Under the pieces are notes generated by a model. It searched no databases. It was not told the origin of the DNA and worked only from the letters and a program-made list of their open reading frames with translations. Of a DNA stretch of 64,000 bases, positions 397 through 32,544 are shown one piece after another. How positions within the stretch are numbered: position 1 is the stretch's first letter; every line of letters begins with the position of its first letter. The position numbers were made by a program, and so were the translations under genes. This DNA comes from Antedon mediterranea (Eukaryota; Animalia; Echinodermata), in NCBI RefSeq assembly GCF_964355755.1, contig NC_092673.1, positions 22,875,648 through 22,939,647 on the forward strand, read 5' to 3'.

Positions 397-426
397 CTAA
401 AATATAATTATGAATATTATACAATG

Positions 427-1596: not shown

Positions 1597-3146
1597 CTAG
1601 ATTTAAACTCGTCACTACGGACGAGTTAGGTTATCCGCAGCGCAGACGCCACATGCACGTCATACGTTAGAATATGGCGCGCAGAAAAACGATTATGCCA
1701 TTGAAAAAATGTTAGTGCGCCCTCTATTTTGTGTCACGTCTATATATACAGTATACACTATACTGCACACGTACTACATACAGTTCAGAATAGGTGAAAA
1801 TAAGTGACCAAAGTTATTGACGCTTTTGAACATGATGACGTCATCACATTTTTTTAAACGGTAAATCATGCGAAAGATAATTGATTGACCTAGACAATAT
1901 AAAAAATGGAGGAAAATGGAATACGGATAAGTAGAGATGCGCTCTATTAAATGTGATGCGCTATGACGAAAGAGACAAAAATCCTATATTTTATATTCGA
2001 GTGGCCATACGATGACGTCACAATGACCGGTTAACCATTATTGATTCATGATTCGATATCTACAACTTATCAACTTCCAGAATCTGTAATTTTAAAAAAG
2101 TTAACCACGTAGTTTAGAATCTATTACAGTTTAAAAAAAGGCATAATTTTCACAAAATTTTGAACTTTTTCATAAAAACGAGTGCAAATTGTCTAATTCT
2201 ACGTGCTCGTATGTTGTGATTTTAGGTCGAAATTGTTTAAAAAGTTGATAAAATTACTAGAAAAGGCTGGAAAAACATAAATCACAATCATTTTTTAAAT
2301 GCTCAAAATGACATGAAACGCGTAGAAAGTTGATTGATTGATTAAAATTGATTTTACGCATTTTGAAATTTTAAACGCGCGTGCGCACGTAACTTTCTGT
2401 AAAACATGCCATTTTTAATCCATAGAAAGTTTGCGCTTGATATAACTTAAATTTCAATATAAAAGACCTTTTGGTTTTTAATCTACGACCAATCATTGAA
2501 ATTCATAAAATCGCGCGTAACTTACGCTGCGCAACTCCGACATCGTCTAAAAGCTTGGCTGCACATCTACAGCTACAGGTCAATGTCACAGTCAAAAGTG
2601 ACGGATATGTAAAGTTAAACACAAAGGGTAATTTGCATAGAACTAGTCAGGTGTATTACCGTATAAAAGAATTGCGGAGGAATGTAGTAATTACACCTCA
2701 CATCAACCTTGTAGAGAAGAGAGGTGTCGCACCTCAGCAATAATACAGATTGACCATTTGCTGCCCGTTGGGCTGAAGTTGGTACCAATACGCAACTGTC
2801 TGACCACCATTTGTAGTAAATCGTAAACCAAGCCGAGTATACACATGATTGTTTATGATTGGAATGTAATTGGTAGTGAACAAGTCCACGAAGAATTGAC
2901 CAGCGGACAAAGAAATAAAGACATTCAGTTGCTAATATTATATATCTTTATACTTTTAATTGCGTTCTTCAGTAGCCATATAGTTCACTTCAATCTGAGC
3001 GTGACTTATGAAAAAGTTATACAATCTTATGTTGGTCAGAATTAGAGATACGCTGCGAACAAAATTCGTGAAAAGAAAGAAGATTAAAGAAAAAAAAAAA
3101 AAGATCCTGACAATAACAAGGGGTTATCCGCCAAGTGCGGATAACC
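1597..3146 (-). mobile_element. Non-autonomous Helentron-type element (HINE/DINE-1-like), type A
   Basis: Absent from the paralogous intron (10190-10205 is the empty site). On the minus strand: 5' GGTTATCCGC-acttg-GCGGATAACC hairpin, then a T-rich tract; near the 3' end GCGGATAACC sub-TIR, AACTCGTC-cgtagt-GACGAGTT stem-loop and terminal CTAG. Inserted in a T-rich site without a clear TSD. Confidence 0.85.
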
Positions 3147-3182
3147 AATTATTTTTATATAAATTAATAATAAAAGACCTAC

Positions 3183-8810: not shown

Positions 8811-9056
8811 CTGTAATTGGATCTGTGTAAGTCACCATAGCTTTTGTGGGATCTTTTCCAAATTCAACTGTAGCTTCACTCATTGAAGTAACTTTTTCCA
8901 AATAGAGATCAAACGTTTCCTTATTTAATTGTTTTGGAAGATCAGTAATTAACAAACTATGCTTATCAAGAGGTCTAACTCGCTTCGTACAAAGTCTAAC
9001 TGTCAATCTTGTTCCAGATAGCACATGATGCTCCTGTTGAACCACTGCCTCAGCAA
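8811..9056 (-). CDS. Exon B of PARP14/PARP10-like RRM-domain gene
   Basis: Acceptor attatag|TTGCTGAG and donor ACAG|gtaata. Length 246 nt, phase 1/1, in frame with exons A and C. Confidence 0.85.
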
Positions 9057-9180
9057 CTATAATATAATTATGAATATTATACAATGAAACCACAAATATA
9101 AGTTTCTCTATTATCCCAGGAGTGGGATTTCTTTTGAAATAATTATTTAGGAAATTTCGCAAAATTATGTTAAGGAATTA

Positions 9181-10122
9181 ATTGCTGCTACAGAATAATT
9201 TACCAGGAAATAACCATGTAAACTATTGCTGCTACAGCATAATTTACCAGGAAACAACCATGCAAACTATTGCTGCTACAGGATAATTTACCAGGAAACA
9301 ACCATGTAAACTATTGCTGCTACAGGATAATTTACCAGGAAACAACCATGTAAACTATTGCTGCTACAGGATAATTTACCAGGAATTGACCATGCAAACT
9401 ATTGCTGCTACAGGATAATTTACCAGGAAATAACCATGTAAACTATTGCTGCTACAGGATAATTTACCAGGAAATAACCATGTAAACTATTGCTGCTACA
9501 GCATAATTTACCAGGAAATAACCATGTAAACTATTGCTGCTACAGGATAATTTACCAGGAAACAACCATGTAAACTATTGCTGCTACAGGATAATTTACC
9601 AGGAAACAACCATGTAAACTATTGCTGCTACAGGATAATTTACCAGGAATTGACCATGCAAACTATTGCTGCTACAGGATAATTTACCAGGAAATAACCA
9701 TGTAAACTATTGCTGCTACAGGATAATTTACCAGGAAATAACCATGTAAACTATTGCTGCTACAGCATAATTTACCAGGAAATAACCATGTAAACTATTG
9801 CTGCTACAGGAAAATTTACCAGAAAACAACCATGTAAACTATTGCTGCTACAGCATAATTTACCAGGAATTGACCATGCAAACTATTGCTGCTACAGGAA
9901 AATTTACCAGGAAACAACCATGTAAACTATTGCTGCTACAGCATAATTTACCAGGAAACAACCATGCAAGCTATTGCTGCTACAGGAAAATTTACCAGAA
10001 AACAACCATGTAAACTATTGCTGCTACAGCATAATTTACCAGGAATTGACCATGTAAACTATTGCTGCAACAGGGTAATTTACCAGGAAATAACCATGTA
10101 AACTATTGCTGCTACAGGATAA
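9181..10122. repeat. 44-bp intronic minisatellite, about 21 copies
   Basis: Same unit as 427-1514. Confidence 0.95.
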
Positions 10123-10236
10123 TACAATTATAGATTTCAAAAATTGTCTCGATTGTATATTATTAAATTAATTTAAAAAAGTTTAATAATAAAAAATAAT
10201 TAATTTTGTAAAAATTAATATAAATAAAAGACCTAC

Positions 10237-10480
10237 TTGTTAGTTGCTCAAATGCGATGAGTACCACTCCTGGCTTAACCATATTAGAATCTGCAATAGG
10301 TCCACCACCAGAGCTTCTGTTACTTTCAAAGTACAGCAACACTGTTTCCAAGGAGAGATCACCAAACGATACGACAATCAGCTGTGTATTGTCACCAACG
10401 TCATCATCATCTGGATTGTCTTCACCAACGTCATCATCATCTGGATGGTCATCACTACTATTGTCGAAAGATGTCGAACT
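10237..10480 (-). CDS. Exon A of PARP14/PARP10-like RRM-domain gene
   Basis: Acceptor ttcatcag|AGTTCG and donor ACAA|gtaggt. Length 244 nt, phase 0/1. Acidic linker followed by QLIVVSFGDLSLETVLLYFESNRSSGGGPIADSNMVKPGVVLIAFEQLT. Confidence 0.85.
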
Positions 10481-11689
10481 CTGATGAATATAGGTAAATA
10501 AATAAAAACAACAAATGATTGTCGTTTGCATACCCTGTGTAGTGCATCTGCAAAAATATGCGCATCCATATGAGGAGGTACAAATTATTTTATATATAAT
10601 ATAAGTTATAATTCCTGCATTAATATTGTCCCGATTCATTTTGGTTTTTATATTTTTTTTTATTGGCAATTATCATTTTATCATTAAAACAATGTGTTAA
10701 TATTAGGCTAGTGTGCATTAATACACAGTATCTCGCAACTATCGACAGGCCACTCACTAAATATTCCGGGTGTTCTAGACTTACTATTAGACTAGACAAT
10801 TATACTATTTCAACCATTTTTATACACGAAGTATTCTTTGAAATATATGAAGTTCAACAATGAAAGCAATACTGGATATGTGGAACTTTATTGTGTTACA
10901 GACTTTACAAAAATAAAAAAACGCTAAAGAAAATTTATGCTGTGTGAATAATAATAATCTAGGGTGCGCATCAGAAAGTGTAGTCTGGGTTCCAGATGGA
11001 GTTTTGACTTAATATTTTGGCGTTTCATACGTATAATATTTGAGCTTGATCCGTCTGGCCAAATACGTACAAGTCACATGTTTTGACACAGAATCGTCAT
11101 GGAAAGACAGGAAAATAAAAGAATCAATAAAAATAAGAAAACATGGTAACACTATGAACAGAGACGACGGCGGTTTGGAACTCCCAAAATTGTACAACAA
11201 CTAAAGAGGAGGCCCCGACAATCCCATTTGGGAAAACCTGAACGATCTACAGATGGCGCTATACCATATACGAGATCTAATGGTAACAAGTCCAAGTCAC
11301 AGAGACTCACTCATGATTAAGCTGCGTCGTTGACCAGCGAAAGCTAGAGTAAAAAACGTAAGTTTACGAATTTTATTCGACTTTGGATCATCCAAAAGAA
11401 AATTTACTATTTAATATATTTTGTTTAGCACAAAGTACCTGTAGGTAAATTTATGGCCCTTGGGAATAAACCTAAAACCTTTAGTATTGCAATACTTGGA
11501 CAATACTGTAAATAACCATTTTTGGTCGCCATTTGAATCGCACATTTTTTATTGTGAGTGTGGGTACTGTTAGATATATAAACATACAGTATGTACAAAT
11601 AAACGTATTATTGTGAGTGTGGCTAGGCGCGTCCTACTGTTAGATATATAAACACGTCAATATACAAATAAACTTTAGTTGCTTCTCAC

Positions 11690-12160
11690 AACGTTTGTAT
11701 TAATTAATAATTACAAAAAATATAAATGTTGTAGTGGTGTATCGACTATGGCAGTGACAGTTTTAGCAAAGTATTAAATCACAAATGTGTTACTGTATTT
11801 AGTGGTATAGGCCTATATAACATGAAAACAATATTTTGTTACTGAGTGGATAAAGAATAATATTTTAAAATAGTTCCTCTTTGTACCTATCCTCTTCCTC
11901 ATCCCTTATCCCTTAACCCAAATGTTACATACAAAACACAAATTGGGTTTGTTTAAATGAAAAAAATAAAAAATTTGGAATAATTTTTTGACAATTTTCT
12001 CTTTCAGAGGCCTAATTCTCAGGGTGCTCAGTTTAGCTGACTACATAAATCATCGTGTCTATTTATTCGTTTCTCTAAACGACAATGTGTCATAGTCCTG
12101 CGGTACGTACATTTGAAATCGCCAATTTTTTTACGCTGATATTACTATGTATTCGAGAAT
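11690..12160 (+). mobile_element. Inverted, degenerate fragment of the Helitron at 14533-15832
   Basis: Reverse-complement similarity to 13135-13630 and 14588-15030 (e.g. catttgaaatcgcca, gtgtctatttattcgt, atcctcttcc). Confidence 0.7.
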
Positions 12161-12871: not shown

Positions 12872-14015
12872 AATCAGGATCTTTTTTTTTTCTATCTATT
12901 CTTATTTCTTTCCACGAATTTTGTCTGCAGCGTATCTCTAATACTTGTCAACATAAGATTATATAACTTTGTCAGAAGATTGACCTCTAACTGTAGATGT
13001 GCAGGAAACTTCGTTATTTGACATTAGAGTCGCGCAACATAAGTTACACGCAATTTTATGAAATTTTATGGTTGATCATAAATTATGAACAAAAAATTAT
13101 TTTGCAATGAAACCCTGTCGTGCCCACAGATGGTTCTCGAATACATATAATAGTGATTTCAGCGTTAAAAAACTGGCGACTTCAAATGTACATGCAGGAC
13201 TCGACAATAATACATGTCGTTTACAGGAACGAATAAATAGACACGGTGATTTATGTACTCAACTAAAATTAGCACCCTGGGAATTACTTCCGAAAGAAAA
13301 GCTTGTCACAAAATAAGACCAATTGTTTTGTAACAAACTGAATTTGTATTTTGTAACATTATGGTTGATGGATGGGGAAGAGGATGGATGCAAAGATGAA
13401 CAATTTTTTAATGTATTCTTTATCCATTTAGTAACGAAATATTAATTGTTTTCATGTTTTACAAATAATATACACTATAAACACGGTAAAACATTGCGAT
13501 TTAATACTTTGTTGAAACTGTCACCGTCATAGTCGATTGAAATAGTACAGTACATGTAACGATACATCACTAATACGTAACAACGTTTATATTTTTTTGT
13601 AATTACATTATTAATTAATACAAACGTTCAGAAGGAACTGTCAGCTATTAAAAACAATTATCGGAGGAGGAGATAGGAAAATGCGAAGCATCCTCGTATT
13701 ATTGTGTGCAGGTATTTTTTAAGAGGACATTCATTAGACAGTGTATACTACGGTCAGAAAACACCCCTATTTGGGGCAAATCGTTCAACCTAAATTCGTT
13801 TTAATTGTCAATGACTAATTATCTAACTGAATTTAATTAGTAAACAGGGTTACATCTGGTGGTTAAAATCAGTACCAACTTTATATACCATCGAGTAAAC
13901 ATTCTAGAAATAACGCGCGATTTATCGAATTTTGCCCTTACGTAAATTTATATATAGATACTGTTACCGCAATGATATAACCCAAACTCTGTCAAAGTGA
14001 CGAGTTCAAATCTAG
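12872..14015 (+). mobile_element. HINE type A, opposite orientation, 5' hairpin lost
   Basis: Starts caggatctttttttt... (reverse complement of the 3090-3110 end). Ends ...ataacccaaactctgtcaaagtgacgagttcaaatCTAG. Confidence 0.7.
13117..13958 (-). mobile_element. 3'-truncated copy of the canonical Helitron at 14533-15832
   Basis: Same 5' end (minus strand TCTATATATAAATTTACG) and colinear body. The terminal hairpin and CTAG are missing. Confidence 0.75.
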
Positions 14016-16038
14016 TCTTCTTTCTGTCATTTTTTTGTGGCTCGCGTATCTCTAAAATGTGTTAACATAACATTTCATAGCTTTGTCAACATATGGACAT
14101 TTAAATGCAGTTGTGCAGCATTTATTTTTTCCATACTGTCTAAAAATTTAAATAACGTCACTTATTTTCATCTTTACAGTATATTTCAATCTGTTATAGC
14201 TCGTCAGAATAAAAAGTGATAATCATTATTAAAATGTTTTCTGGCAGCTATTGGATTGTAGATACGAATTCATATGAACATTTTGAAAATCAGATGTTGT
14301 GACGTCATCATATGGCCAGTTGAATAAAAAAGGGGTATTTTCATCTTTTGCGTCATAGTTCATCAAATTTAAAAGAGCGCACATTTATATTTTACGTATT
14401 CAAATTTCATCTACACGTTAATATGTTGTTGCTGAGATAATTTCCTTTTGAAATTGCTATCTTCGTGTTTCATTTTGATACTGTCACCATGTTAAAAATT
14501 TGAATAAATGGCGGGTCTCGTAATTTCACCTACTAGATGGTACGCTCGCTTCGCTCGCGTACCATCTTGGTCGTGCCCACAGATTGTTCTCGAATACATA
14601 ATAATTTCAGCGTTAAAAAACTGGCGATTTCAAATGTACGTACCGCAGGGCAAATACATGTCGTTTAGAGGAACGAATAAATAGACAATGTGATTTATGT
14701 ACTCAACTAAAATTAGCACCCTGGGAATTACTTCCGAAAGAGAAACTTGTCACAAAATGAGACCAATTGTTTAAGTCAAATTTAAACAAACTTAATTTGT
14801 GTTTTTTATGTAACATTAGGGTTGAGGGATGGGGAAGAGGATGGGTGCAAAGAGGAACAACAATTTTTAAATATATTCTTTATCTATTTAGTAACGAAAT
14901 ATTAATTGTTTTCATGTTTTACAAATACCACTGAACACAGTAAAACATTGCGATGTAATACTTTGTTGAAACTATCACCGTCCAAGTCGATTGAAATAGT
15001 ACAGTACATGTAACGATACATCACTACGACGTGTATATGTTTATATAATGTAAAACAATTTGTGAAAACCACCTCTATTCGGGGAAAATCATAAATTCGA
15101 TTTAATCGTCAATAAATATTAAATTATCTAACTCAACTTAATAAGTAGGCCTAATGGTTTTCAATTGTTTCTTAGAGCCAATTCATACTTAAGTTGGTTC
15201 CTACCCTACCCACCAAAGTTGTTCTGCGTTTAGGGCATGTGATGTACCGTAGGCCTATCCTCTACTGGTTTTACAACGCTACTCATGCCAGTGAGAGAAG
15301 GGTGATGACGTGGGTGGTTTAATTGCAATAATAAAGATTTGTACATAATATACGGCGAGTGAAAACTCTAGCTCATTATCCGTTTAAAATCAATACATTT
15401 GTATAAACGTATATTAAATCTATCAAAATAGTATTTTTTAAAGAAAATCGGCCTGTCTTCAACATTATGATGCTGTACTCGAGCTGTTCAACCGGTTTTC
15501 AGCCATTAAAAACAATTATCGTAGGAGGAGATAGGAAAATGCGAAGCATTCTCGTATTATTGTCTGCGGGTATTTTTCAAGACGGACATCCATTAGACAG
15601 TGTATACCACGATAAAAAAACACCCCTATTTGGGGCAAATCGTTGAACCTAAATTCGTTTTAATCGTCAATAACTAATTATTGAACTCAATTTAATTAGT
15701 AAACAGGGTTACATCAAGTGGTTAAAATCAGTACCGAAAGTACGAACCAATTCTTTATATACCATCGAGTAAACATTCTAGAAATAACGCGCGATTTACC
15801 AAATTTTGCCCTTACGTAAATTTATATATAGATTCTACACTGTATGTAATATGTACACAGATTACACTGTGTATGACACAAAATAGACAGAATTCAGCAC
15901 TATAACAACATATCACATTCTTCAGTTCAGGTCATAATGGCATAATCTTTTTCTGTGTGCAATATTCCAACATATGACGTACACGCGGCGTCTGTTGTGC
16001 GGATAACTAACTCGTCAAATTGACGAGTTCGTGTCTAG
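14016..16038 (+). mobile_element. HINE type B, opposite orientation, interrupted by a Helitron
   Basis: Body is the reverse complement of the 25937-27548 type. Ends gcggataactaactcgtcaaattgacgagttcgtgtCTAG. Confidence 0.8.
14533..15832 (-). mobile_element. Canonical non-autonomous Helitron
   Basis: Minus strand: A|TCtatatata...AGATGGTACGC-gagcgaagcga-GCGTACCATCTAG|T. It has 5' TC, a 3' hairpin with CTAG, an A/T target and no TSD. Removing it restores the HINE-B sequence gtaatttcacct.ttctacactg. Confidence 0.85.
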
Positions 16039-16039
16039 T

Positions 16040-16900
16040 TATTTATTTCTCTCTTTACAAATTTGTGTAACAATTATCTCAAAAGTTTAATGTCAATGAT
16101 TACCAAAATTTCACAATATCATTCAAATAATTTTATAAGATTTTCAGGGTGACCACTCATCCGTGACATCATTTATAGGCCATTTTATGAAATCACATTA
16201 TCAATCATATCTCTATAACTAGTCATAAAATATCAATAAAAACGCATGTGTACACAGGGTCATGCATATGAAATCACACGTTAAAAATGTTAAAACCTCA
16301 AAATTAATTTTGATCAATTAAGAGCATGAATTAGGCCATATTTGCGTGTTTAAGAAAATTACTGTGCAAAAACAAAAGCTCGCGCATTACTTAGAAAGCG
16401 TATACATTACAATTTTGTTACAAATCACATTCTACTCACTATTCTTAATACATTTCCAAAATTTGAGTCTATTCCGACTTAGGTAACGCTATAGGAGCAG
16501 GTTAAAAATGCTCACATTAATTGCACAAAAGTGCTGAAAATGGTTAAAAATAAGGCATTTTTAAAATCAAAATTATTCTTCAGAATGCACGATGACCTCC
16601 AATTTGTTTAACTTATTCTGGAAGCCATTGAGTTGTAGATATTAATTCATGTACACATTTGACGTACAAAATGTTGTGACGTCATCAAATGCCCATTTGA
16701 ATTTAAAAATTAGGAGTCTTATATCTTTTTTTGTAGGTTATAACCCGATTTTTCCTCAAATTTAAGTATGTGCTTGTTTAATTATCTTTCTCATGAGTTG
16801 CCAGCATTTAATTTTGATGACGTTATCACGCGTAAAAAATAACGTAGGTCATGTAATTTCACCTTCAGCGTATATTTAAAAATCTCACAGCTTTTCAGAA
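16040..16900 (+). mobile_element. Older diverged HINE-related body
   Basis: Shares degenerate modules (gttgtagatat, tgtgacgtcatc, gtaatttcacct) with the reverse-oriented HINEs. A further piece lies at 17652-17975. Confidence 0.5.
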
Positions 16901-16929
16901 TTAGACCTTAATTGCTTTTTATAACTCAT

Positions 16930-17651
16930 TATCAGGGTTGCAACATCTAATTAAAATTTCTGAATGCTTTGCGGCCAAAAATGATATTGTTTACAATGCT
17001 AAGAAATCATCTTGTATGATAATCTGTCCTAAGTCACGGAGGATTCAATTGAAACCTATTATTACCATTAATGGCAAAAGCTTAGAATATGTGGACTCAA
17101 CCACATATCTTGGTCATGTTATATCCTTGGATTTATGTGATGAGTTTGATATAAAGCGGCAATACAGATCTTTGTGTATCCGAGCCAACTCCTTGGTCAG
17201 AAAATTTAGTATGTGTTCTATCAATGTGAAATGTGTTTTATTTAGAACATATTGTGTAAATATGTATTGTGCTACATTATGGTGCAACTAAATCAAGGTA
17301 CCTTGCGATCTCTCCAGGTATGCTACAATAATGGTTTAAGAATGTTGTTGCAAAGGCCTCGACATTGCAGTGCCAGCCTCATGTTTACGGAATGTAGAAT
17401 TCCCTCTTTTTATGAATTGTTAAGAATATCAATATATGGCCTGATGTGTAGACTTAATGCAAGCAAAAATATTTTAATCTCAACGATTATAAGCAATGTC
17501 TTAGTTAAGTCGAAGATGCTCTCCAGATGGAATGCCATCCTGAGATGAGTAGTAGTAATTTTGTTTATTTTATTTATTTCATTTATATGTAATTTACTTT
17601 CTATGGACCAGAGTTTCCGAAATAAAAGATTGATTGATTGATTGATTGATT
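16930..17651 (+). mobile_element. 5'-truncated LINE (ORF2 C-terminal part, disrupted) with (ATTG)n tail
   Basis: YNAKKSSCM...YLGHVI...RANSLVRKFSMCSINVKCVLFRTYC, a disruption at about 17290, and AATAAAAG followed by attgattgattg... Confidence 0.8.
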
Positions 17652-17977
17652 ATGAAAGCTGCTGAAATATAGATATGAAATCATATTCAAATTGTGCCTA
17701 TAGGATGATGTGACATTGTCATATGGCCAGTTGAAGTTAAAAAGTAGTTTTTTCATTTCTTTCGTCAAAGTTATACAAATTTCTAAGAACGTGCACCGCG
17801 CTTATAAATGCCAATTTTTTTTCCCAAATCTTATATTTTGTGCTCAATTAATTATCTTCCGAAATTGTCATCTTCAAGTTTATTTTGATGTCATACCAAA
17901 AAATTTGAACATGGTGTGGGTCCCGTAAGTTAACCTATGTTACACTGTACAGTATAGAGTATATGCTATGACACTAC

Positions 17978-18890: not shown

Positions 18891-21800
18891 CTAGATTTGA
18901 ACTCGTCACTACGTACGAGTTAGGTTATCCGCAGCCCAAAGGCCACGTGCACGTCATACGTTGGAATATTGCGCGCAGAAAAACGATTATGCTATTGAAA
19001 ACAATGTTAGTGCGCTCTCTATTTTGCGTCACGTCAAAGTATATACAGTATACACTATATACTGTATACGTAGTACATACAGTTCAGAATAGGTGAAAAT
19101 AAGTGACCAAAGTTATTGACGCTTTTGGACATGATGACGTCATCACAATTTTAAAAACGGTAAATCATGCGAAAGATAATTGATTGACCTAGACAAAATA
19201 AAAAAATTGAGGGAAATGGAATACGGATAAGTAGAGATGCGCTCTATTAAATTTGACGAGCTATGATGAAAGAGAAAAAAATCCTATATTTTGTATTCGG
19301 GTGGCCATACGATGACGTCACAATGTCCGGTTAGCCATATCAATGCATGATTCGAGAAATAAAACTATCTACTTCCAGAATATGTAATTTAAAAAAAGTT
19401 CACCACGTAGTTTAGAATTTATGACTGTTTAAAAAAAGGTCTAATTTTGACAAATTTTTGAAGTTTTTCATCAAAAACGCGCACAAATTATCCAATTCTA
19501 CGTGCTCGTGTGACGTGATTTTAAGTCGAAATTGATTGAAAATTGATAAATTTACTAGAAAAGGCTGAAAAAACACAAATCAAGCAAAAAAAGGATGTTT
19601 TTGCGCTACGTGCGCACGCGCGCGTACAAAATTTGCGCACGCATGGGAAATTTTGAAATGCTCAAAATGACCTGAAACGCGTAGAAGTTGATTAGAAATT
19701 GATGTTACGCATTTTGAAATTTTAAACTTTCTGTTAAACATGCCATTTTTAATCCATAGAAAATTTGCGCATTATATGACTTAAATTTTCACCATGTTTC
19801 AATACAAAACGACTTTTAGTTTTTATTCTATGATCAATCATTGAAATTCATAAAATCGCGCGTAACTTACGCTGCGCAAGTCGGACGTGACCGAAAACCT
19901 TATTACGACATCTTCAGATTGAGGTCAATCTTCTGATAAAGTTATACAATGTTATGTTAAGAAGATTTAGAGATACACTAGCAACAACATTCGTGGAAAG
20001 AAAGAAGAAAATAGAAACTAGATTTGAACTCGTCACTACGGACGAGTTAGGTTATCCGCAGCGCAAACGCCACGTGCACGTCATACGTTAGAATATTGCG
20101 CGCAGAAAAACAATTATGCCATTGAAAAAATGTTAGTGCGCTCTCTATTTTGTGTCACGTCAAAGTGTATACAGTATACACTATATACGTACTACATACA
20201 GTTCAGAATAGGTGAAAATAAGTGACGAAAGTTATTGACGCTTTCGCACATGATGACGTCATAACAATTTTTTTAATGGAGAATCATGCGAAAGATAATT
20301 GATTGACCTAGACAATATAAAGAAATGGAGGGCAATGGAATACGGATAAGTGGAGATGCGCTCTATTAAATGTGATGAGCTATGACGAAAGAGAAAAAAA
20401 TCCTATATTTTTTATTTGAGTGGCCATACGATGACGTCACAATGTCCGGTTAGCTATATTGATGCATGATTCGATATCTACAACTCATCTAATTCCAGAA
20501 TGTGTAATTTAAAAAAAGTTCACCTCGTAGTTTAGAATCTATGACTTTTTAAAAAAAGGCATAATTTTCACAAATTTTTGAACTTTTTCATCAAAAACGC
20601 ACGCAAATTGTTCAATTCTACGTGCTCGTATGACGTGATTTTAAGTCGAAATTGATTGAAAATTGGTAAATTTACTAGAAAAGGCTGGAAAAACAAAAAT
20701 CAAGGAAAAAATTGATGTTTTTGCGCTACGTGCGCACGCGCGCGTAAGAAAAGTGCGCACGCGTGGGAATTTTTGATATGCTCAAAATGACATGAAACGC
20801 ATAGAAAGTTGATTAGAAATTGATTTTTCGCATTTTGAAATTTTAAACGCGCGTGCGCGCGTAACTTTTTGTAAAACTTGCCATTTTCTCTCCATAGAAA
20901 GTTAGCGCATGATATAAATTAAACTTTTGCCAAGTTTCAATTTAAATGGTTTAATAGTTTTCGATCTAAATTAAATACGCGAAATTCATAAAATCGCGCG
21001 TAACTTACGCTGCGCAACTCGGACGGTACCGAAAACCTTATTACGACATATTCAGATAGAGATCAATCTTCTGATAAAGTTACAAAATGTCATGTTGAGA
21101 AGATTTAGAGATATACGCGCAACAAAATTCTGGGAAAGAAAGAAGAACTAGACATGAAACTCGTCACTTTGACGAGTTAGTTATCCGCTCGACAAACGCC
21201 AAGTGCACGTCATACGTTAGAATATTGCACACAGAAAAATATTAAGGCATTAAGACCTGAACTGAAGAATATGATATGTTGTTATTTCTGAATTCTGTTA
21301 TTTTGTGTCATATAGTATACACAGTACAATCTGTATACATATCACAAACAGTGTAAAATAGGTGAAATTACGGGACCCGTATTTTATTGTAATTTTTAAC
21401 ATCTTGACGGTTTCAAAATGAAATGCAAAAGTAGAAATTTCTGAATGAAATTATCTCAGCAACAACATATTAACGTGTAGAAGAAATTTGAATACGTGAA
21501 ATATTGATGCGCGCTCTTTTAAATGTAATGAAATATAATGCAAAAGAAGAAAATACGACTTTTTTTATTTAACTGGCCATATGATGACGTCACAACATTC
21601 GATTGGCACAATTTACACATGATTTTGTATCTACAATACAATAGCTTCCTGAAAACGTTTTAATCGTGATTATCACATTTTTTTCTTACGAGGTATAACA
21701 GATTAAAATTTACTGTAAAGATGAAATTAATGACCAACGTAATTTAAATGTTTAGGCATGATGACGTTAAAAAAATTAAAAAATTTTTAATTAATGCAAA

Positions 21801-24800
21801 AGATAGTTGATTGACATAGAATATATTAAAATCGGGGTGAAAATGGACAACGAATAAGTGGAGATGCGCTCTATTAAATGTGATGAGCTATGACGAAAGA
21901 GACAAAAATCCTATATTTTATATTTGCGTGGCCATACGATGACGTCACAATGTCCGGTTAGCCATATTAATGTATGATCCGATATCTACAACTCATCAAC
22001 TTCCAGAATATGTAATTAAAAAAAAGTTGTCCATGTAGTTTAGAATCTATGAATGTTTTAAAATAGGCATAATTTTGACGAATTTTTGAACTTTTTCACC
22101 AAAAACGCGTGCAAATTATCTAATTCGACGTGCTCGTATGACGTAATTTTAAGTCGAAATTGTTAAAAATTTGGTAACATTACTAGAAAAGGCTGAAAAA
22201 ACATAAATCACGTGAAAAAAATATGTTTTTAACGCTACGTGGGCACCGCGTGCGTAAAAATTTTCGCGCGCGTGGGAATTTTTGACATGCTCAAAATGAC
22301 ATGAAACGCATAGAAAGTTTATTAGAAGATGATTTTTCGCTTTCTAAAATTTTAAACGCGCGTGCGCGCGTAACTTTTTGTAAAACATGCTATTTTTAAT
22401 CCATAGAAAGTTTGCGCTTGATATGACTTAAATTTTCACAAAGTGTCAAAACAAAATTATGTTTGGTTTTCAGTCTATGATCAATCATTGAAATTCATAA
22501 AATCGCGCGTAAGTCATGTTGCGCAACTCTGACGTCATTCAAAAATAGGAGGTGCACAAGTTCACGTAAATTTCGATATGTTGACAAAGTTACGATGTGT
22601 TCTGTTTACACGTTTTAGAGAAACGCGACGCACAAAAATGACAGAAGGAAAGAAGCATAATACAGAAAAGAAAAAAAAATATGATGAAACAGGACGATTA
22701 CAAGGAGTTATCCGCTACTAAGCGGATAACTAACTAGACATGAAACTCGTCAGTTTGACGAGTTAGTTATCCGCTCGACAAACGCCACGTGCACGTCTTA
22801 CGTTGGAATGTTGTACACAGAAAAAGATTATGGCATTATGACCTGAACTGAAGAATATGATATGTTGTTAGTGCTAAATTCTGTCTATTTTGTGTCATAT
22901 AGTATATACATTTTAAAGTACACAGTATAACACCTAATTTAAATTTTTAGGCATGATGATGTCATAAAAATTAAATATTTTTAACACATGCATAAGATAG
23001 TTGATTGACCTAGACAATATTAAAATCTCAGAGAAAAAGGAATACAGATAACGGTGATGCGCTCCATTTAATGTGAGGAGCAATAATGAAAGAGACAAAA
23101 ATCATATATTTTACATTCGTGTGACCATACGATGACGTCACAATGTCCGGTTAACCATATTGATTAATGATCCGATATCTACAACTCATCACCTTCCAGA
23201 ACATGTAAGTAAAAAAAAGTTTACCTCGTAGTTTAGAATCTATGATTGTTTAAAAAAAGGCATAATTTTGACAAATTTTTGAATTTTTTCATTAAAAACA
23301 CGCACAAATTGTACAATTCGACGTGCTCGTATGACGTAATTTTAAGTCTAAATTGTTTTAAAAGTTGATAAAATTACTATAAAAGGCTGGAAAAACATAA
23401 TTCACGCAAAAAAGATGTTTTTAGCGCTACGTGCGGACCACGCGCGTAAGATTGTTCGCGCGCGTGGGAATTTTTGACATGCTCAAAATGTCATGATCAG
23501 CGTAGAAAGTTGATTAGAAATTAATTTTGCGCATTTTAAATTTTAAATGCGCGTTCGCGCGTAACTTCGTGTAAAACATGCCATTTTTAGTGCACAAAAA
23601 GTTAGCGCAAGATATAAATTAAACTTTTGCTAAGTTTCAATTTAAATTGTTATATGGTTTTCAATCTATGTTAAATACGCGAAATTCATAAAATCGCGTG
23701 TAAGTCACATTGCGCATTTCTGAGGTCATTCACAATAGGAGGTGCACAACTTCACTTGAATGCCCATATGTTGACAAAGTTATGAAATGTTATATTTACA
23801 CGTTTTTGAGATACGCGAGGCACAAAAATGGAGGAGAAATGCGCGTGTGCACGTAAACTTCTTGTAAAACATGCCATTTTTAATCCATAGAAAGTTTGCC
23901 CTTGATATGACTTAAATATTCACCAATTGTCAATACAAAATGAATTTTATTTTTTATCCTATGATCAATCAATGAAATTCATGAAATCGCGCGTAAGTCA
24001 CGTTGCGCAACTCTGATGTCATTAAAAAATAGGAGGTGCACAACTTCACGTAAATGTCCATATGATGACAAAGTTATGAAATGTTATGTGTACAAGTTTT
24101 TGAGATACGCGAGACACAAAAATGGAGGAGAAAGAAAGAAGAATAATACTAGACATGAAACTCGTCACTTTGACGAGTTAGTTATCCGCACGACAAACGC
24201 CACGTGCACGTCATACGTTGGAATATTGCACACCGAAAAAGATTGTCATTATGACCTGAACTGAACAATATGATGTGTTGTTAGTGCTGAATGCTGTATA
24301 TTTTCTGTCATATAGTATACACAGTATAATCTGTATACATGTCACAAACAGTGTAAAATAGGTGAAATTACGGGACCCGTATTTTATTTTAATTTTCAAA
24401 AGGAAACGCGAAGGTAGTAATTTCGGAAGAAAATTATCTCAGCAACAACATATTAACGTTTAGAAAAAAATTTGAATACGTGAAATATTAATGCGCGCTT
24501 TTTTAAATGTAATGAACTATGACGCAAAAGATGAAAATATGACTTTGTTTATTTAACTGGCCATATGATGACGTCACAACATCTGATTGGCGAAAAGTTC
24601 ACATGATTTCATATCTACAATCCCATAGCTTCCTGAAAACGTTTTAATCGTGATTATCACATTTTATTCTTACGAGCTATAACAGATTAAAATTTACTGT
24701 AAAGATGAAATTAATGACGCTGTTAATTAAAATTTTTAGGCATGGTGACTTCATAAAAATTAAAATATTTTTAACTCATGCGTAAGATAGTTGATTGACC

Positions 24801-27756
24801 TAGAAAATATTAAAATCTCAGAGAAAAAGGAATACAGATAGGCGTGATGCGCTCCATTGAATATGATGAGCAATAACGAAAGAGACAAAAATCCTATATT
24901 TTACATTCGTGTGGCCATACGATGACGTCACAATGTCCGGTTAGCCATATTGATTCATGATCCGATTTCTACAACTCATCAACTTCCAGAATATGTAATT
25001 AAAACAAAGTTCACCTCGTTGTTTAGAATCTATGACTGTTTAAAAAAAGGCATAATTTTGACAAATTTTTGAACTTTTTCATCAAAAAACGCACGTAAAG
25101 TATCCAATTCAACGTGCCCGTATGACGTAATTGTAAGTCGAAATTGTTTTAAAATTTGTAAAATTACTATAAAAGGCTGGAAAAACATAATTCAATAAAA
25201 AAAAAATACTTTTAGCGCTACGTGCGCACCACGCGCATAAAATTGTTCACGCGCGTGGGAAATTTTGACATGGTCAAAATGTCATGATCAGCGTAGAAAG
25301 TTGATTAAAAATTAATTTTGCGCATTTTGAATTTTAAATGCGCGTGCGCGCGTAACTTTGTGTAAAACACGCAATTTTTTTTCCACAGAAAGTTAGCGAA
25401 TGATATAAATTAAACTTTTGCTAAGTTTCAATTTAAATTGTTATATGGTTTTAAATCTATGTTAAATACGCGAAATTCATAAAATCGTGCGTAAGTCACG
25501 TTGCGCATTTCTGACGTCATTCACAATAGGAGGTGCACAACTTCACGTGAATGCCCATATGTTGACAAAGTTATGAAATGTTATGTTTACACGTTTTTGA
25601 GATACGCGAGATACAAAAATAGAGGAGAAATGCGCGTGCGCGCGTAACGTCTTGTAAAACATGGCATTTTTAATCCACAAAAAGTTTGCCCTTGATATGA
25701 CTTAAATTTTCACAAAGTGTCAAAACAAATTTATACTTGGTTTTTAGTCTATGATCAATCATAAAAAATCATAAAATCGCACGTAAGTCACGTTGCGCAA
25801 CTCTGACGTCATTAAAAAATAGGAGGTGCACAACTTCACGTAAATGCCCATATGTTGACAAAGTTATGAAATGTTATGTTTACAAGTTTTTGAGATACGT
25901 GAGGCACAAAAATGAGGGAGAAAGAAATAAGAAAAACTAGACATGAAACTCGTCACTTTGACGAGTTAGTTATCCGCACCACGACAAACGCCACGTGCAC
26001 GTCATACGTTGGAATATTACACACAGATAAAGATTATGGCATTATGACAAGAACTGAAGAATATGATATGCTGTTAGGGCTGAATTCTGTCAATTTTGTG
26101 TCATATAGTATACATGCAAACACTACAGTATAATCTGCATACATATTACATACAGTGTAGAAAAGGTGAAATTATGGGACCCGCCATTTATTCCAATTTT
26201 TAACATGGCGACGGTATCAAAATGGAACACTTAGATAGCAATTTCAGAAGGAAATTATCTTAGGAACAACATATTAACGTGTAGAAGAAATTTGAATACG
26301 TAAAATATAGATGCGCACCCTTTTAAATGTGATGAACTATTACGCAAAATATGAAAATACAACTTTTTTTATTCAACTGGCCATATGATGACGTCACAAC
26401 ATCCGATTGGCAAAATGTTTACATGAATTCGTATCTACAATCCCATAGCTTCCAGAAAACGTTTTAATCATGATTATCACTTTTTATTCTGATGAGCTAT
26501 AACAGATTGAAATTTACTGTAAAGATGAAAATAAGTGACCCACGTTATTTACAATTTTCGACATGATGACGTCATAAAAATTAAATTATTTTTAACTCAT
26601 GCGAAAGATAGTTCATTCACCTAGACAATATCAAAATCGGGCTGAAAATAAAAAACGGATAAGTGGAGATGCGCTCTATTAAATGTGATGCGCTATGACG
26701 AAAGATATAAAAATTCTACATTTTATATTCGCGTGGCCATACGATGACGTTATAATGTCCGATTAGCCATATTAATGCATGATTCCATATCTACAACTCA
26801 TCAACTTCCAGAATATATAATTTAAAAAAAGTTCACCTCGTAGTTTAGAATCTATGAATGTTTAAAAAAAGGCATAATTTTGACGAATTTTGACAAATTT
26901 TTGAACTTTTTCATCAAAAACGCACGTAAATTATCCAATTGGATGTGCCCGTATGACGTAATTTTAGGTCAAAATTGTTCAAAAATTGGTAAAATTACCA
27001 GAAAAGGCTGGAAAAACATGAATCACGCGAAAATTTTTTATTTTCAACGCTACGTGCGCACCGTGCGAGTAAAAATATGCGCGCGCGTGGGAATTTTTGA
27101 CATGCTCAAAATAACATGAAACGCGTAGAAAGTTGATTAGAAATTGATTTTTCGCATTTTGAAATTTTAAACGCCCGTGCGCGCGTAACTTCTTGTGAAA
27201 CATGCCATTTTTTTTCCACAGTCAGTTAGCGCAAGATATAAATTAAACTTTTGTTAAGTTTCAATTGAAATTGCTATATGGTTTTCGATCTATGTTAAAT
27301 ACGCGAAATTCGTTAAAACGCGCGTAAATCACGTTGCGCAATTCTGACGTCATTCACAATAGGAGGTGCACAATTTCGCGTGAATGCCCACATGTTGACA
27401 AAGTTATAAAATGTTTTGTTTACAATTTTTTGAGATACGCGAGACACAAAATTGACAGAAAGAAAGAATAATACAGAAAAAAAAAAAAAAAAAAAAAAAG
27501 ATGATTTCATACAGTTACAAGGAGTTATCCGCTACTAAGCGGATAACTAATAAAGAAAAAAGAAAAAAAGATCCAGGACGATTACAAGGAGTTATCCGCT
27601 ACTAAGCGGATAACTAATAAGATAGAAAAAAAAAAAAAAAAAAAAGATCGTGACAATAACAAGGGGTTATCCGCCAAGTGCGGATAACCAAAAAAAGAAA
27701 AAAAAAAAAAAAGATCCTGACAATAACAAGGGGTTATCCGCCAAGTGCGGATAACC
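18891..27756 (-). mobile_element. Nested cluster of six HINE elements
   Basis: CTAG/stem-loop/sub-TIR ends at 18891 (A), 20018 (A), 21148 (B), 22734 (B), 24149 (B) and 25937 (B). Hairpin ends at 22731 (B), 27548 (B), 27615 (B), 27689 (A) and 27756 (A). Confidence 0.9.
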
Positions 27757-28150
27757 AATAATATTATGCATCCCTTTCCATTTACCATCAATTTAAAACT
27801 AATCTCTGTATTGAAGATTATTTTTGTGTACTGAAAAATCCACTCCACATCATTATGTTAACTAAGCAAGACTTGGTATTCTAGAATTTAGAATCCTAAA
27901 TAGGTAAAAGGATGAATGTGCCCTGTTTGGAACGTATTTGTAGACTATGTAACAGAGGAGAAGTAGAGGATGTCTTTCATCTTATTTTGAACTGTCCATT
28001 ATATAATCAAGAAAGAAATCGTCTCATTCCAAATTATATTTCAAATATGTTCTACTTTGTTTCATTATTTAATTAATAAAACCACCAAATACGATTAAGT
28101 TATTAGCAAATTTTATTAATTGTATGTGCTGTCAAGAAACAAACATTTTA
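27757..28150 (+). pseudogene. Degenerate LINE ORF2 C-terminal CCHC region (continuation of 17978-18890)
   Basis: VPCLERICRLCNRGEVEDVFHLILNCPLYNQERNRLIP at about 27918-28030. Confidence 0.75.
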
Positions 28151-29217: not shown

Positions 29218-30934
29218 GGGTGTTTCGAAACTAGAGACCCGAGACCAGAGACCAGAGACCCGAGACCCAATACGAAAAGGGAGACCCCACTATACGAAAA
29301 GGGAGACCCCAAATATACGAAAAGGGAGACCCAAATATACAAAAAGGGAGACCCAAATATACGAAAAGGGAGACCCAAATATACGAAAAGGGAGACCCAA
29401 ATATACGAAAAGGGAGACCCAAATATACGAAAATGGAGACCCAAATATACAAAAAGGGAGACTCAAATATACGAAAAGAGAGACCCAAATATACAAAAAT
29501 GGAAACCCAAATATACGAAAAGGGAGACCCAAATATACGAAAATAGAAACCTAAAATATACAGTTATACGTCGGCCCAGAGCCGCCTTAACTGTAGAAAC
29601 TCAAAACCAAAGTTTTGTTCACAGTCAGTGTTTTAGGTCGGCCGAGGGTCGCCTTTCGAACGTTCACAACTGTCTTTCCGCCGAACAGGAAGATTCAGGC
29701 AGCTGGCTTGGCATGCTGGGAAGGGTATATTCTCAAAACACAATATAGTTGACCCTATGAAGGCGACCAAAACAATTTCAATCATTATCCAATATGACAC
29801 ATTACACAGTTAAAGCAGATGTTATAAACATCTGTATTATTTAATATACAGCCGAGAATTTCACATTCTATTTTTACTTCTTTCTGCATTAATTAATATT
29901 TACATTTTATTAAAATAGATGGGAAACCCCCACAAAAGATGGAAATATATAGGCCTATCAATTTACACAGCGTTAAAAGCTTCACAACACATATAATTTA
30001 AATAAATCCAGGCTACTGTATTATTCAATATTTTTTTACATCAAGTTTCTTCTTTAATATGATTTGTGAAAATATGTTTTCAATCAATACAATGAATCAA
30101 TGTACACTTATGTGGATAATGAAACAATGTAAAATTATAATTTTAATGGTAATGATATAATGATGATAGTAACGAGAGAATATATACTTTCACCCAAACC
30201 ATAAAAAATCCACCCTGGCTACGGGCCTGAATTGGCTGTCGGACATAACATAGTTTAAACTTGATTGCGCTCTAAAAAAAGAACTGAATATATTAAAAAA
30301 CGATATTCAATACATAAAAAAACCTCATATGCTCAAACTATAAGTAAGCTCACAACCTATTCTCATAAATTCAAAATTCTCATTCTGATAAAATACGCAA
30401 ATTTCATGAAACGTTGCGCAACTGTAAACAACATCATGGTAATATTTTGTTTGTAAGTTTTTGTGAAAAGCGATACACCAAAATGGCAGAAACCGTTCAG
30501 ACAATAACGCCACGAGCAGATAACCAGAAAGTTAAAAAAAACAGTAAAAAGACGTATTTAAGTTATCGAACATTTTGGTCTCCCTTTTCGTATATTTGGG
30601 TCTCCCTTTTCGTATATTTGGGTCTCCCTTTTCGTATATTTGGGTCTCCCTTTTCGTATATTTGAGGTCTCCCTTTTCGTATAGTGGGGTCTCCATTTTC
30701 GTATAGTGGGGTCTCCCTTTTCGTATAGTCCAGGGTCTCCCTTTTCGTATAGTGGGGTCTCCCTTTTCGTATAGTGGGGTCTCCCTTTTCGTATAGTGGG
30801 GTCTCCCTTTTCGTATAGTGGGGTCTCCCTTTTCGTATAGTGGGGTCTCCCTTTTCGTATAGTGGGGTCTCCCTTTTCGTATAGGGTCTCGGGTCTCTGG
30901 TCTCTGGTCTTGGGTCTCTAGTTTCGAAACACCC
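29218..30934. mobile_element. Foldback/MULE-like non-autonomous transposon with tandem-repeat TIRs
   Basis: TIR GGGTGTTTCGAAACTAGAGACC..., inverted arrays of the 22-bp unit aaatatacgaaaagggagaccc (29270-29545 and 30575-30885), and a perfect 10-bp TSD ATGTTACAGT. Confidence 0.92.
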
Positions 30935-31000
30935 ATGTTACAGTATTATATTAGGTGTTTTCAATAACATGACAATAGTTTTACCTCCTCACTGTTAAAT

Positions 31001-32544
31001 TGTCTATCACAAATCACAAGAAAAACCTATAAACGAAAACATTAAACCTATTGAAATGAAGTCTCCCTTTACAGGTGATGAAGTTGCCAAAGCAGCGAAA
31101 TGCTTAAAAAATAATAAAAGCCCAGGAAGTGACCAAGTATACTCTGAAATGGTAAAATATGCACCTATAGAAGTTTTTAACCACATAGCAGAAATATATA
31201 ACCAAACAGCTAAAACAGGAAACATACCTAAAGAAATCAACGAAGGCATATTGCATCCAATACCGAAACCAGGCAAGAAAAAAGGTCCACCAAAAAACAT
31301 CCGACCCATCATCCTACTGTCGGTTCTTAGGAAAATGCTAGCAATATGCTTACTAAATAGGATAAACGACAGATTAGATGAACATGTCCCTGTAACACAG
31401 GCCGCGTATCGCAGAGGACGAAGCACTACCGAACATGTACATACATGCAAAATGTTAGCAGAAAAGGCAATTGCGTCATCTAACTACGAAATAATATTAC
31501 TACTACTTGACATGACCAGTGCATTTGACACGGTGCGGAGGAATACTCTATTCGACATACTGACACATATATTACAAGATGATGAACTACACATGTTGAA
31601 AGTTTTGATAAACAATGTAAAATTAAGCGTTCGAATTGGAAAACAGACAGGAAAATTGTTTACTACTACACTAGGAGTACCACAAGGTGACTGTATGTCT
31701 CCGATACTGTTCACACTATACCTAGCAAAGGCACTCGAATCAGCAAACACAACACCACTACCCCTACAACAGCTTAATATCCAGATGCAGTATGCAGATG
31801 ACATTTCATTTATTAGCGACTCAAAAGAACACATAAGTAAAATAAAGAAAAATGTAACAGAGAAATTAGCAGAATTCAATCTAAAGATAAACGAAAGTAA
31901 AACAGAAGAATACCTAATAGGAAGAAACACCGATAGTAAATGGGAAGAATGCAAATACCTCGGTAGTAACTTGGACACAGAAAAAGACATTAAAAGAAGA
32001 AAATCACTAGCAGCTATGGCATATAACAAGCTGAAGCCGTCGCTAGAACACAAAACGATGTCTATAGACGTGAAATCCCGTTTGTTTGACGCATACATAG
32101 CAAGTATTTTCTTATATAACAGTGAACTCTGGGTACTAAACAAAAAATTACAAGAGAGTATAGATATATATCACAGGAAAATGTTGCGAAAGATGATAGA
32201 TATTAAATTAACAGATAGAGTGTGTAACACGAAAATATACGAGATAACAAAACAAGAAGAATGGAGTAAAAGAATTAAACGAAGGAGACTAAAATGGTAT
32301 GGACACATAATTAGATTACCGGATGATACCCCAATCAAACAAACAATGAAGGAAACTAACAGGAAAGTAAAACGACCCGTAGGAAGACCAAGAAATAACT
32401 GGATGAATCAAATAAAGAAAGACTTACAAGGACTAGTAGACACTAACACAATAACAAACCATCCTGCCATAAACAGAAAAAAATGGAAACAAATTGTGGA
32501 AAGCGTAATGTCGGAAGACGGAAAACGTTAGCAACAACAAACAA
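31001..32544 (+). mobile_element. 5'-truncated RTE-like LINE, young
   Basis: 10-bp TSD ACTGTTAAAT (30991-31000 and 32545-32554). Uninterrupted RT frame from the insertion start to the stop at 32531, then a caacaacaaacaa tail. Confidence 0.9.
31056..32531 (+). CDS. Non-LTR retrotransposon reverse transcriptase (N-terminally truncated ORF2)
   Basis: KSPGSD, RPIILLS, QAAYRRGRST, LDMTSAFD, GVPQGDCMSPILF, YADD, YLGS, RRLKWYGHI. Confidence 0.92.
   Translation: MKSPFTGDEVAKAAKCLKNNKSPGSDQVYSEMVKYAPIEVFNHIAEIYNQTAKTGNIPKEINEGILHPIPKPGKKKGPPKNIRPIILLSVLRKMLAICLLNRINDRLDEHVPVTQAAYRRGRSTTEHVHTCKMLAEKAIASSNYEIILLLLDMTSAFDTVRRNTLFDILTHILQDDELHMLKVLINNVKLSVRIGKQTGKLFTTTLGVPQGDCMSPILFTLYLAKALESANTTPLPLQQLNIQMQYADDISFISDSKEHISKIKKNVTEKLAEFNLKINESKTEEYLIGRNTDSKWEECKYLGSNLDTEKDIKRRKSLAAMAYNKLKPSLEHKTMSIDVKSRLFDAYIASIFLYNSELWVLNKKLQESIDIYHRKMLRKMIDIKLTDRVCNTKIYEITKQEEWSKRIKRRRLKWYGHIIRLPDDTPIKQTMKETNRKVKRPVGRPRNNWMNQIKKDLQGLVDTNTITNHPAINRKKWKQIVESVMSEDGKR

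What the first reader, a model, noticed from the sequence alone, without database searches (positions are those of the whole stretch)
18891..27756. Russian-doll nest of self-targeting rolling-circle elements with last-in-first-out end stacking
Seen: six left ends in the order A (18891), A (20018), B (21148), B (22734), B (24149), B (25937). Apart from the outermost and the 22734 copy, each starts inside the gaaagaaagaagaa tract of the previous element; the 22734 copy abuts the complete copy 21148-22731. The displaced right ends are stacked about 70 bp apart in reverse order: B (27548), B (27615), A (27689), A (27756). One B end is missing. The subtype base covaries between ends (A: GGTTATCCGC with loop caagt; B: AGTTATCCGC with loop tactaa). 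This is nesting, not head-to-tail rolling-circle concatemers. Inference: each element carries its own preferred landing pad about 50-70 bp from its 5' hairpin. That makes a self-renewing safe harbour that grows the intron, records insertion order (A before B) and generates a new array of about 70-bp hairpin units. I am not aware of this exact arrangement being described, but could not check.
Basis: partly seen in the sequence, partly recalled or inferred. Interest (0 to 1): 0.85.

Follow-up and report, generated by a model that had tools for sequence, protein, structure and literature searches.

The report
Rolling-circle transposons nested five deep
Six small gene-less jumping elements sit inside or beside one another with their cut-off front ends piled at one side, likely because each copy carries a T-rich patch that attracts the next copy; self-insertion was already proposed for this transposon group, so this is a clear example rather than a new kind of system.

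Summary
Un-nesting rebuilds three interrupted copies whose ends match in subtype; two copies are intact and one lacks its cap. The ends are those of non-autonomous Helitron2/HLE2 (HINE-like) elements on the minus strand. Insertions fall 67-84 nt behind a host's 5' end, in its T-richest tract. A decayed second nest (12.9-18 kb) reuses that tract, and contigs from two samples show pad-to-end and stacked-cap joints elsewhere.

Not supported: an inward age gradient; 'A before B' as a rule (the second nest has an A-like copy inside B); intronic position; 'safe harbour'. Ordinary T-rich targeting may explain the choice of site within an element. Whether more is needed (homing, local hopping, mobile composites) is open.

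Self-insertion giving repeated 31-85-nt 5' ends was proposed for Fusarium Helitron2, and read-through from an inner 5' end, which would explain the missing cap, for maize Helitrons. This scan already noted such nests at three other places in this genome and in at least four other genomes (unchecked notes). New variant of a known kind; interest 0.38.

The parts
18891..20017 (-). E1, subtype A: body and 3' end (subTIR, stem-loop, CTAG); outermost copy
   Evidence: outer junction crossed by contigs with 0 differences
20018..21147 (-). E2, subtype A: body and 3' end, inserted 67 nt from E1's cap end
21148..22733 (-). E3, subtype B: uninterrupted copy (1584 nt plus flanking TT), in E2's pad at 74 nt
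22734..24148 (-). E4, subtype B: 3' end abuts E3's cap; no 5' cap of its own; lacks an internal block of about 360 nt; shares a ~292-nt duplication with E5
24149..25936 (-). E5, subtype B: body and 3' end, joined to E4's pad about 71-74 nt from where its cap would be; single T after CTAG
25937..27550 (-). E6, subtype B: uninterrupted innermost copy (1612 nt plus TT), 67 nt from E5's cap end
27551..27617 (-). Displaced B cap (poly-T remainder and 5' hairpin) of E5, or an E4/E5 hybrid
27618..27691 (-). Displaced A cap of E2
27692..27758 (-). Displaced A cap of E1; outer 5' end of the nest
1597..3148 (-). Solo subtype A copy with an unrelated insertion (about 2585-3004); reference for an uninterrupted pad
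10185..10212 (.). Paralogous empty site for the solo A copy, in a duplicated segment: one AA where the filled site has AA on both sides
12880..17950 (+). Second, decayed nest in the opposite orientation: diverged relative > B relic (CTAG 16035-16038) > A-like relic (CTAG 14012-14015); caps lost
   Evidence: host 64-65% identical to the family and collinear up to the pad, z 8.8-11.9

Best explanation
Six non-coding copies with Helitron2/HINE-type ends lie nested up to five deep, each inner copy about 70 bases behind a host's 5' hairpin, likely because successive insertions chose the T-rich tract that every copy carries there. Shown: the end anatomy; the nested order; the junction positions; one TT at an empty site against TT on both sides of the filled site; a second nest using the same tract. 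Inferred: a RepHel transposase from an unseen autonomous HLE2 partner moves single strands; the element is best read as 5'-TT...CTAG-3' joined at A^T or T^T; each insertion brings a fresh pad and pushes the host's 67-74-nt cap outward, so caps stack in reverse order. The target is strand-specific, which would explain why all nested copies face the same way. The missing cap most likely reflects a composite copied from an inner 5' end through to an outer 3' end, or loss of one 67-bp unit from the stack.
For: Exact ends and rebuilt hosts. Hairpins of -11.3 and -11.4 kcal/mol 2 nt from the 5' end, and a 3' subTIR 31-32 nt from the end, upstream of a stem-loop, fit Helitron2 as defined in PMC3627910 (passages). 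Empty site. Of 9 3' ends in the window, 6 lie in a relative's pad, 1 abuts a cap and 2 lie outside. The pad holds the A-richest 30-mer of 5 of 5 copies, and the opposite strand has 0-1 comparably rich sites. Simulated random insertion gives P(>=6 of 9 in pads) from <5e-6 to 0.02 depending on the site rule. In run X6, pad-to-3'-end joints have depths 7542, 1220 and 323, and cap-to-pad joints have depths 282, 153, 138, 137, 34 and 29, against about 135-148 for unique flanks. In run X1, a different organism code, 2 contigs show a cap followed by a pad remainder and 1 shows an A cap followed by a 3' end.
Against: One cap is missing (6 3' ends, 5 caps). There is no inward fall in divergence. The tail swap test did not discriminate. 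The simulations are biased because the window was chosen for its nest. Under the strictest T-rich rule the excess is marginal (P 0.02-0.04), yet both outside sites are only 0.41-0.50 A locally, so no single composition rule fits all sites. No listed contig spans the inner junctions; X6 may be the assembly's own sample; contig depth is not copy number. No autonomous partner was seen and no genome was held.
Confidence: 0.78

Rival explanations
1. True homing: transposase bound to a resident 5' hairpin (or pairing with it) directs new insertions about 70 nt inside the copy, beyond what base composition gives.
For: Sites cluster at 67, 67, 74, about 71-74 and about 81-84 nt. None of the 3 precisely measured sites lies in the pure poly-T run at 45-60 nt, where most TT steps are. 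Pad hits exceed most composition nulls. Only 2 pad-like tracts occur in 48.4 kb of background.
Against: The mixed TTA/TTC part of the pad resembles the two outside sites (A^TTATT), so a sequence motif may suffice. HINEs are known to prefer T-rich targets (PMC4067079, passages). The window is ascertained.
Confidence: 0.25
2. Part of the nest was assembled elsewhere and arrived as a mobile composite (for example E5+E4, with one 5' cap and two 3' ends), so depth at this locus is not a pure record of local insertion order.
For: E4 and E5 are sisters (support 100/99, 8.9% apart) and together have one cap. A single pad-to-3'-end joint with the same single-T pattern reaches depth 7542 in one contig, about 50 times the unique flank. 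This route is proposed for maize (PMC3288121, passages) and Fusarium (PMC5148889, passages and section 10). It is compatible with the best explanation.
Against: The abundant joint is not the E4/E5 junction itself. Recurrent insertion at one site of a common pad would give the same contig. Deletion of one of three adjacent near-identical B caps, or assembly collapse, explains the missing cap equally well.
Confidence: 0.35
3. Not a nest: an array of 5'-truncated copies or rolling-circle concatemers plus an independent tandem duplication of 5' caps.
For: The two A caps are 97% alike. 5'-truncated Helitron2 copies are common in Chlamydomonas (PMC3627910). The subtype order would match by chance 1 time in 6.
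Against: Bodies differ by 9-22%. All breaks fall in the same tract, and the remainders continue the pad. Published rolling-circle arrays have many 5' ends and one 3' end (as summarised in PMC12628747). Only 1 of 5 inner junctions is head-to-tail.
Confidence: 0.07
4. Assembly artefact joining dispersed repeat copies.
For: The family is very abundant (summed contig depth 1e5-1e6 against 148), and no spanning read was seen.
Against: The copies are all distinct. The junctions are base-precise and follow the target rule. A second decayed nest and similar joints in another organism's run exist.
Confidence: 0.03

Closest known systems
Helitron2 / HLE2 non-autonomous elements (Bao & Jurka 2013, PMC3627910, passages read; HELIANO, PMC11417382, passages)
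   Same: Short asymmetric inverted repeats; 5' hairpin at the very end; 3' repeat just upstream of a second hairpin; insertion at T-containing steps; no coding capacity.
   Different: The 3' repeat lies 31-32 nt from the end (about 20-30 described). TTTT precedes only 1 of 6 caps. The ends read best as 5'-TT...CTAG-3', the signature given for proto-Helentron. No autonomous partner was seen.
HINE / DINE-1 non-autonomous Helentrons (Thomas et al. 2014, PMC4067079, passages; oyster Cg_HINE, PMC7492417, passages)
   Same: subTIRs, an inverted repeat at the 5' end, a 3' stem-loop, a short microsatellite-like tract behind the 5' hairpin, and preference for T-rich sites.
   Different: The passages read describe no insertion into the element's own tract ('nested' and 'inserted' occur 0 times in PMC7492417). 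There is no regular central satellite array here. Linkage to an endonuclease-bearing Helentron is untested.
FoHeli with multiple 5' termini, Fusarium oxysporum (Chellapan et al. 2016, PMC5148889; section 10 and passages read)
   Same: A Helitron2-type element whose first 31-85 nt are repeated, explained by self-insertion near the 5' end; here the caps are 67-74 nt.
   Different: There, several caps go with one 3' end and the nested intermediate was mostly inferred. Here bodies and 3' ends survive, five deep, in an animal.
Maize Helitrons with multiple termini from nested intermediates (PMC3288121, passages)
   Same: Nested copies; transposition from an inner 5' end through outer 3' ends gives composites lacking the outer cap.
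   Different: Those are HLE1 elements, and no fixed internal landing tract is described in the passages read.
MITE self-insertion multimers in rice and maize (review PMC5172404, passages)
   Same: Non-autonomous elements with a high frequency of insertion into their own family.
   Different: Those are cut-and-paste TIR elements; the passages read describe no stacked ends.

Membership tests
Helitron2 / HLE2 | 5' ATIR 0-2 bp from the 5' end, forming a 5' hairpin | tested here: met
   hairpin starts after TT, -11.3 (A) and -11.4 (B) kcal/mol
Helitron2 / HLE2 | 8-15 bp ATIRs matched between the two ends | tested here: met
   10-bp repeat; its first base covaries (G in A, A in B) in 6 of 6 copies with both ends, 3 of them rebuilt
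Helitron2 / HLE2 | 3' ATIR about 20-30 bp from the end, directly upstream of a hairpin | tested here: met
   31-32 nt in 4 of 4 ends measured, with a stem-loop following; at the upper edge of the described range
Helitron2 / HLE2 | Insertion between T and T (or TTTT^T/C), no true target duplication | tested here: inconclusive
   Empty site has one TT, filled site TT on both sides; 7 of 9 3' junctions have TT and 2 of 9 a single T; 6 of 6 caps have TT; TTTT upstream in 1 of 6. Fits 5'-TT...CTAG-3' at A^T or T^T
Helitron2 / HLE2 | Autonomous partner with the same ends and an HLE2-clade RepHel | not testable with these tools
   No genome held; no RepHel-like frame noticed among the 61 ORFs of 90 aa or more (by eye); no relatives in metagenome or viral scans
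HINE / DINE-1 (Helentron) | subTIRs, 5' inverted repeat, 3' stem-loop, microsatellite behind the 5' hairpin, T-rich targets | tested here: met
HINE / DINE-1 (Helentron) | Partner transposase carries an apurinic endonuclease domain | not testable with these tools
   no partner available
FoHeli-type multi-5' composites | Repeated short 5' termini | tested here: met
FoHeli-type multi-5' composites | Multi-ended units found at several loci with different flanks (moved as a unit) | tested here: inconclusive
   one joint at about 50 times flank depth, but its flanks cannot be read
Rolling-circle tandem arrays (Xiong et al. 2016; original not read, summarised in PMC12628747) | Tandem truncated copies of one template, many 5' ends and one 3' end | tested here: not met
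   6 3' ends and 5 caps; copies 9-22% apart

The most novel reading that the evidence does not exclude
HLE2 elements in this animal home to a fixed spot about 70 nt behind a resident copy's 5' hairpin by recognising the copy itself, not just T-rich DNA. The resulting nests are re-mobilised as multi-ended composites, and the piled 67-bp caps are a seed for satellite DNA built from transposon ends rather than from internal repeats.
Probability: 0.22. Interest if true: 0.65.

Novelty: new variant of a known kind. Interest (0 to 1): 0.38.

Why it matters
The locus preserves the nested intermediate that the Fusarium and maize papers had to infer. It gives base-precise junctions for HLE2 ends, whose exact termini and target were left ambiguous in PMC4067079; here they read best as 5'-TT...CTAG-3' at A^T or T^T. 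It makes a simple question testable with any assembly of this species: are pads hit more often than equally T-rich sites elsewhere? It also warns that such nests will be misannotated as tandem repeats. It does not reveal a new gene or enzyme, and the scan has noted similar nests repeatedly.

Tried and rejected
No whole genome was held, so consensus dating, nest counts and the partner search were impossible.

Collection scans found no relatives. Metagenome scan for the 3' end: 0 matches. Metagenome scan for the cap: 118 loci (scan stopped at 43 of 64 parts), none matching beyond the 24-40-bp palindrome. Viral scan: 1 unrelated match. Rfam: 0 matches.

Age test: private substitutions and end branches fall inward within subfamily pairs (E1>E2, E4>E5) but rise for E3 and E6; inconclusive. 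Copies also look mosaic between subfamilies. The tail swap test did not discriminate.

Intron test: PARP14-like RRM pieces lie only at 131-10669 (Pfam hit for 1 of the 4 such pieces sent among 11 proteins). A search for a full-length homologue found none. The 93 longer minus-strand frames listed were not scanned against Pfam, and no RNA run was sought because the one run search was used for DNA.

Contig tables were truncated to the best-supported rows, so missing joints prove nothing. A look-up of earlier findings by sequence found nothing, so I cannot say whether the other nests noted in this genome are the same family.

Literature: seven searches found no paper describing a deep intact HLE2 nest with stacked caps. 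Subscription papers (Xiong 2016, Jiang & Wessler 2001, Thomas & Pritham 2015) and all supplements were not seen, and the supplements of PMC5148889 may show closer cases.
Full report
Observation. The region holds six ends beginning with CTAG on the plus strand (18891, 20018, 21148, 22734, 24149, 25937) and five hairpin caps (ending 22731, 27548, 27615, 27689, 27756), exactly as reported. Subtype A ends carry G at the first subTIR base and a 5-nt loop; subtype B ends carry A and a 6-nt loop. Joining each interrupted part to the next remainder gives elements of 1194 (E1), 1204 (E2) and 1855 nt (E5). These align end to end with a solo A copy at 1597-3146 and with the uninterrupted B copies E3 (1584) and E6 (1612). 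E4 has no cap. The topology is E1 > E2 > {E3; E4 > E5 > E6}, five deep. Pairwise differences are 8.9-21.9%, so the copies are independent or old. The order of the stack alone has a 1 in 6 chance, and swapping tails did not discriminate. The case for nesting rests on all breaks falling in one tract and on the remainders continuing it.

What the element is. On the minus strand each copy starts TT, then a 10-bp repeat folded into a hairpin (-11.3 or -11.4 kcal/mol). It ends with the same repeat inverted, a stem-loop and CTAG, the repeat lying 31-32 nt from the end. This is the Helitron2 anatomy of PMC3627910 (passages), the HLE2 of PMC11417382 (passages) and the HINE layout of PMC4067079 and PMC7492417 (passages). 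Rfam gives nothing. The autonomous partner could not be sought because no genome is held, and collection scans found no relatives. The family is very abundant: summed contig depth is 1e5-1e6 against about 148 for the unique flank in run X6 (this is not a copy number). Earlier scan notes call the animal a feather star; I did not test that.

Target site. A duplicated segment gives an empty site for the solo copy: one AA on the plus strand, against AA on both sides of the insertion. All 6 caps are preceded by TT, but only 7 of 9 3' ends are followed by TT; 2 have a single T, as does the most abundant joint in the reads. The simplest reading (inferred) is an element 5'-TT...CTAG-3' joined at A^T (4 of 5 sites with both flanks) or T^T (1 of 5). 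On this reading E4 abutting E3 is a second use of the same site in E2's pad.

The landing tract. Insertions lie 67, 74 and 67 nt from the host's cap end, and about 71-74 and 81-84 nt for two hosts without caps. A second, decayed nest at about 12.9-18 kb, in the opposite orientation, has a B relic in the pad of a diverged relative (64-65% identity, collinear to the pad, z 8.8-11.9) and an A-like relic in the B pad. Of 9 3' ends in the window, 6 are in pads, 1 abuts a cap and 2 are outside. The pad holds the A-richest 30-mer of 5 of 5 copies, and the other strand has 0-1 similarly rich sites. Known T-rich preference (PMC4067079) could therefore explain both position and orientation once a copy is hit. 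Whether copies are hit more often than the rest of the window depends on the rule assumed. P(>=6 of 9) is below 5e-6 for loose rules, 5e-6 for two motif rules, 7.5e-5 at local A >= 0.6 and 0.02 at >= 0.7; P(>=5) without a seed copy is 0.0003 and 0.037 for the last two. The window was picked for its nest, so these are not formal tests. The two outside sites are only 0.41-0.50 A, so a strict T-rich rule cannot be the whole story either.

Elsewhere in the genome. On a 301-base stretch holding pad, cap and 3' end, run X6 shows pad-to-3'-end joints at depth 7542, 1220 and 323. It also shows at least six different cap-to-pad joints (282, 153, 138, 137, 34, 29), against 135-148 for unique contigs. 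A cap joined to an A 3' end across a short A run has depth 2551. Run X1, a different organism code with a word share of 0.14, shows a cap followed by a pad remainder (2 contigs) and a cap followed directly by a 3' end (1 contig). So nesting and stacking recur. Caveats: X6 may be the assembly's own sample, the tables are truncated, and no listed piece spans the block.

What did not hold. Private substitutions (967 columns) are E1 18, E2 15, E3 32, E4 23, E5 17 and E6 29; end branches are 0.054, 0.041, 0.100, 0.056, 0.037 and 0.064. Inner is younger within subfamily pairs but not across them; sister sampling and mosaic bodies confound this. 'A before B' is contradicted as a family rule by the second nest. 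PARP14-like RRM exons were found only up to 10669 and no full-length homologue was recovered, so 'grows the intron' is unshown. 'Safe harbour' is untested.

The missing cap. E4 and E5 are sisters (100/99) sharing a ~292-nt duplication. Copying from E5's 5' end past its own 3' end to E4's would give exactly one cap and two 3' ends, the route proposed for maize (PMC3288121, passages). Loss of one of three adjacent B caps, an originally 5'-truncated E4, or assembly collapse are alternatives. The data do not separate them.

Comparison and novelty. PMC5148889 (section 10 and passages) reports Fusarium Helitron2 copies with the first 31-85 nt repeated and proposes self-insertion. MITE self-insertion is known (PMC5172404, passages), and nested Helitrons are invoked for Paramecium (PMC13085455, passages). 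Rolling-circle arrays have many 5' ends and one 3' end (PMC12628747, passages) and do not fit. Seven searches found no paper on a deep intact nest with stacked caps, but subscription papers and supplements were not seen. This scan's own unchecked notes list three similar nests in this genome and six in other genomes; they are leads, not support. Verdict: real, it works like serial self-insertion of an HLE2/HINE-type element, and it is a new variant of a known kind. Interest 0.38; the homing reading has probability 0.22.

Noticed in passing
window 14533-15832 (minus strand); partial copies 13117-13958 and 11741-12159: A 1300-nt non-coding element with canonical Helitron1 ends (5' TC, hairpin, CTAG) inserted at A^T inside the B relic; removing it restores the B sequence.
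   Followed up: partly
window 131-10669 (minus strand): PARP14-like RRM exons (PF23085, E 2e-11 for 6662-6955) in a duplicated segment offset by about 7-8.7 kb, with 44-bp tandem arrays at 427-1518 and 9181-10123.
   Followed up: partly
window 2585-3004: About 420 nt of unrelated sequence inserted in the solo A copy; origin not examined.
   Followed up: no
window about 50950-57000, within inverted arms 50048-50479 and 57468-57899: Two long overlapping ORFs (51430-53502, 53490-55346) that look by eye like gag-pol of an LTR retrotransposon, flanked by repeats rich in a 30-bp unit. The whole lies between 432-nt arms that are 93% complementary.
   Followed up: no
window 29234-29551 and 30563-30919: Two arrays of a 22-bp unit in inverted orientation about 1.1 kb apart, foldback-like.
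   Followed up: no
window 30999-32531 (plus); 41260-42513 and 43477-44124 (minus): LINE-type reverse transcriptase frames; RVT_1 E 4e-33 for the first, the others judged by eye.
   Followed up: partly
E1-E6 bodies, about 1200-1350 alignment columns from the 3' end: Copies are mosaics: in one window E2 (subtype A) is nearest E6 (subtype B) and E3 is nearest the second duplicate of E5, suggesting exchange between subfamilies.
   Followed up: partly
L008, L024, L042, L052, L054, L074, L084, L098, L100, L105, L114: AT-rich metagenome contigs sharing a longer perfect palindrome around the same core and similar flanks; probably an unrelated dispersed repeat.
   Followed up: no
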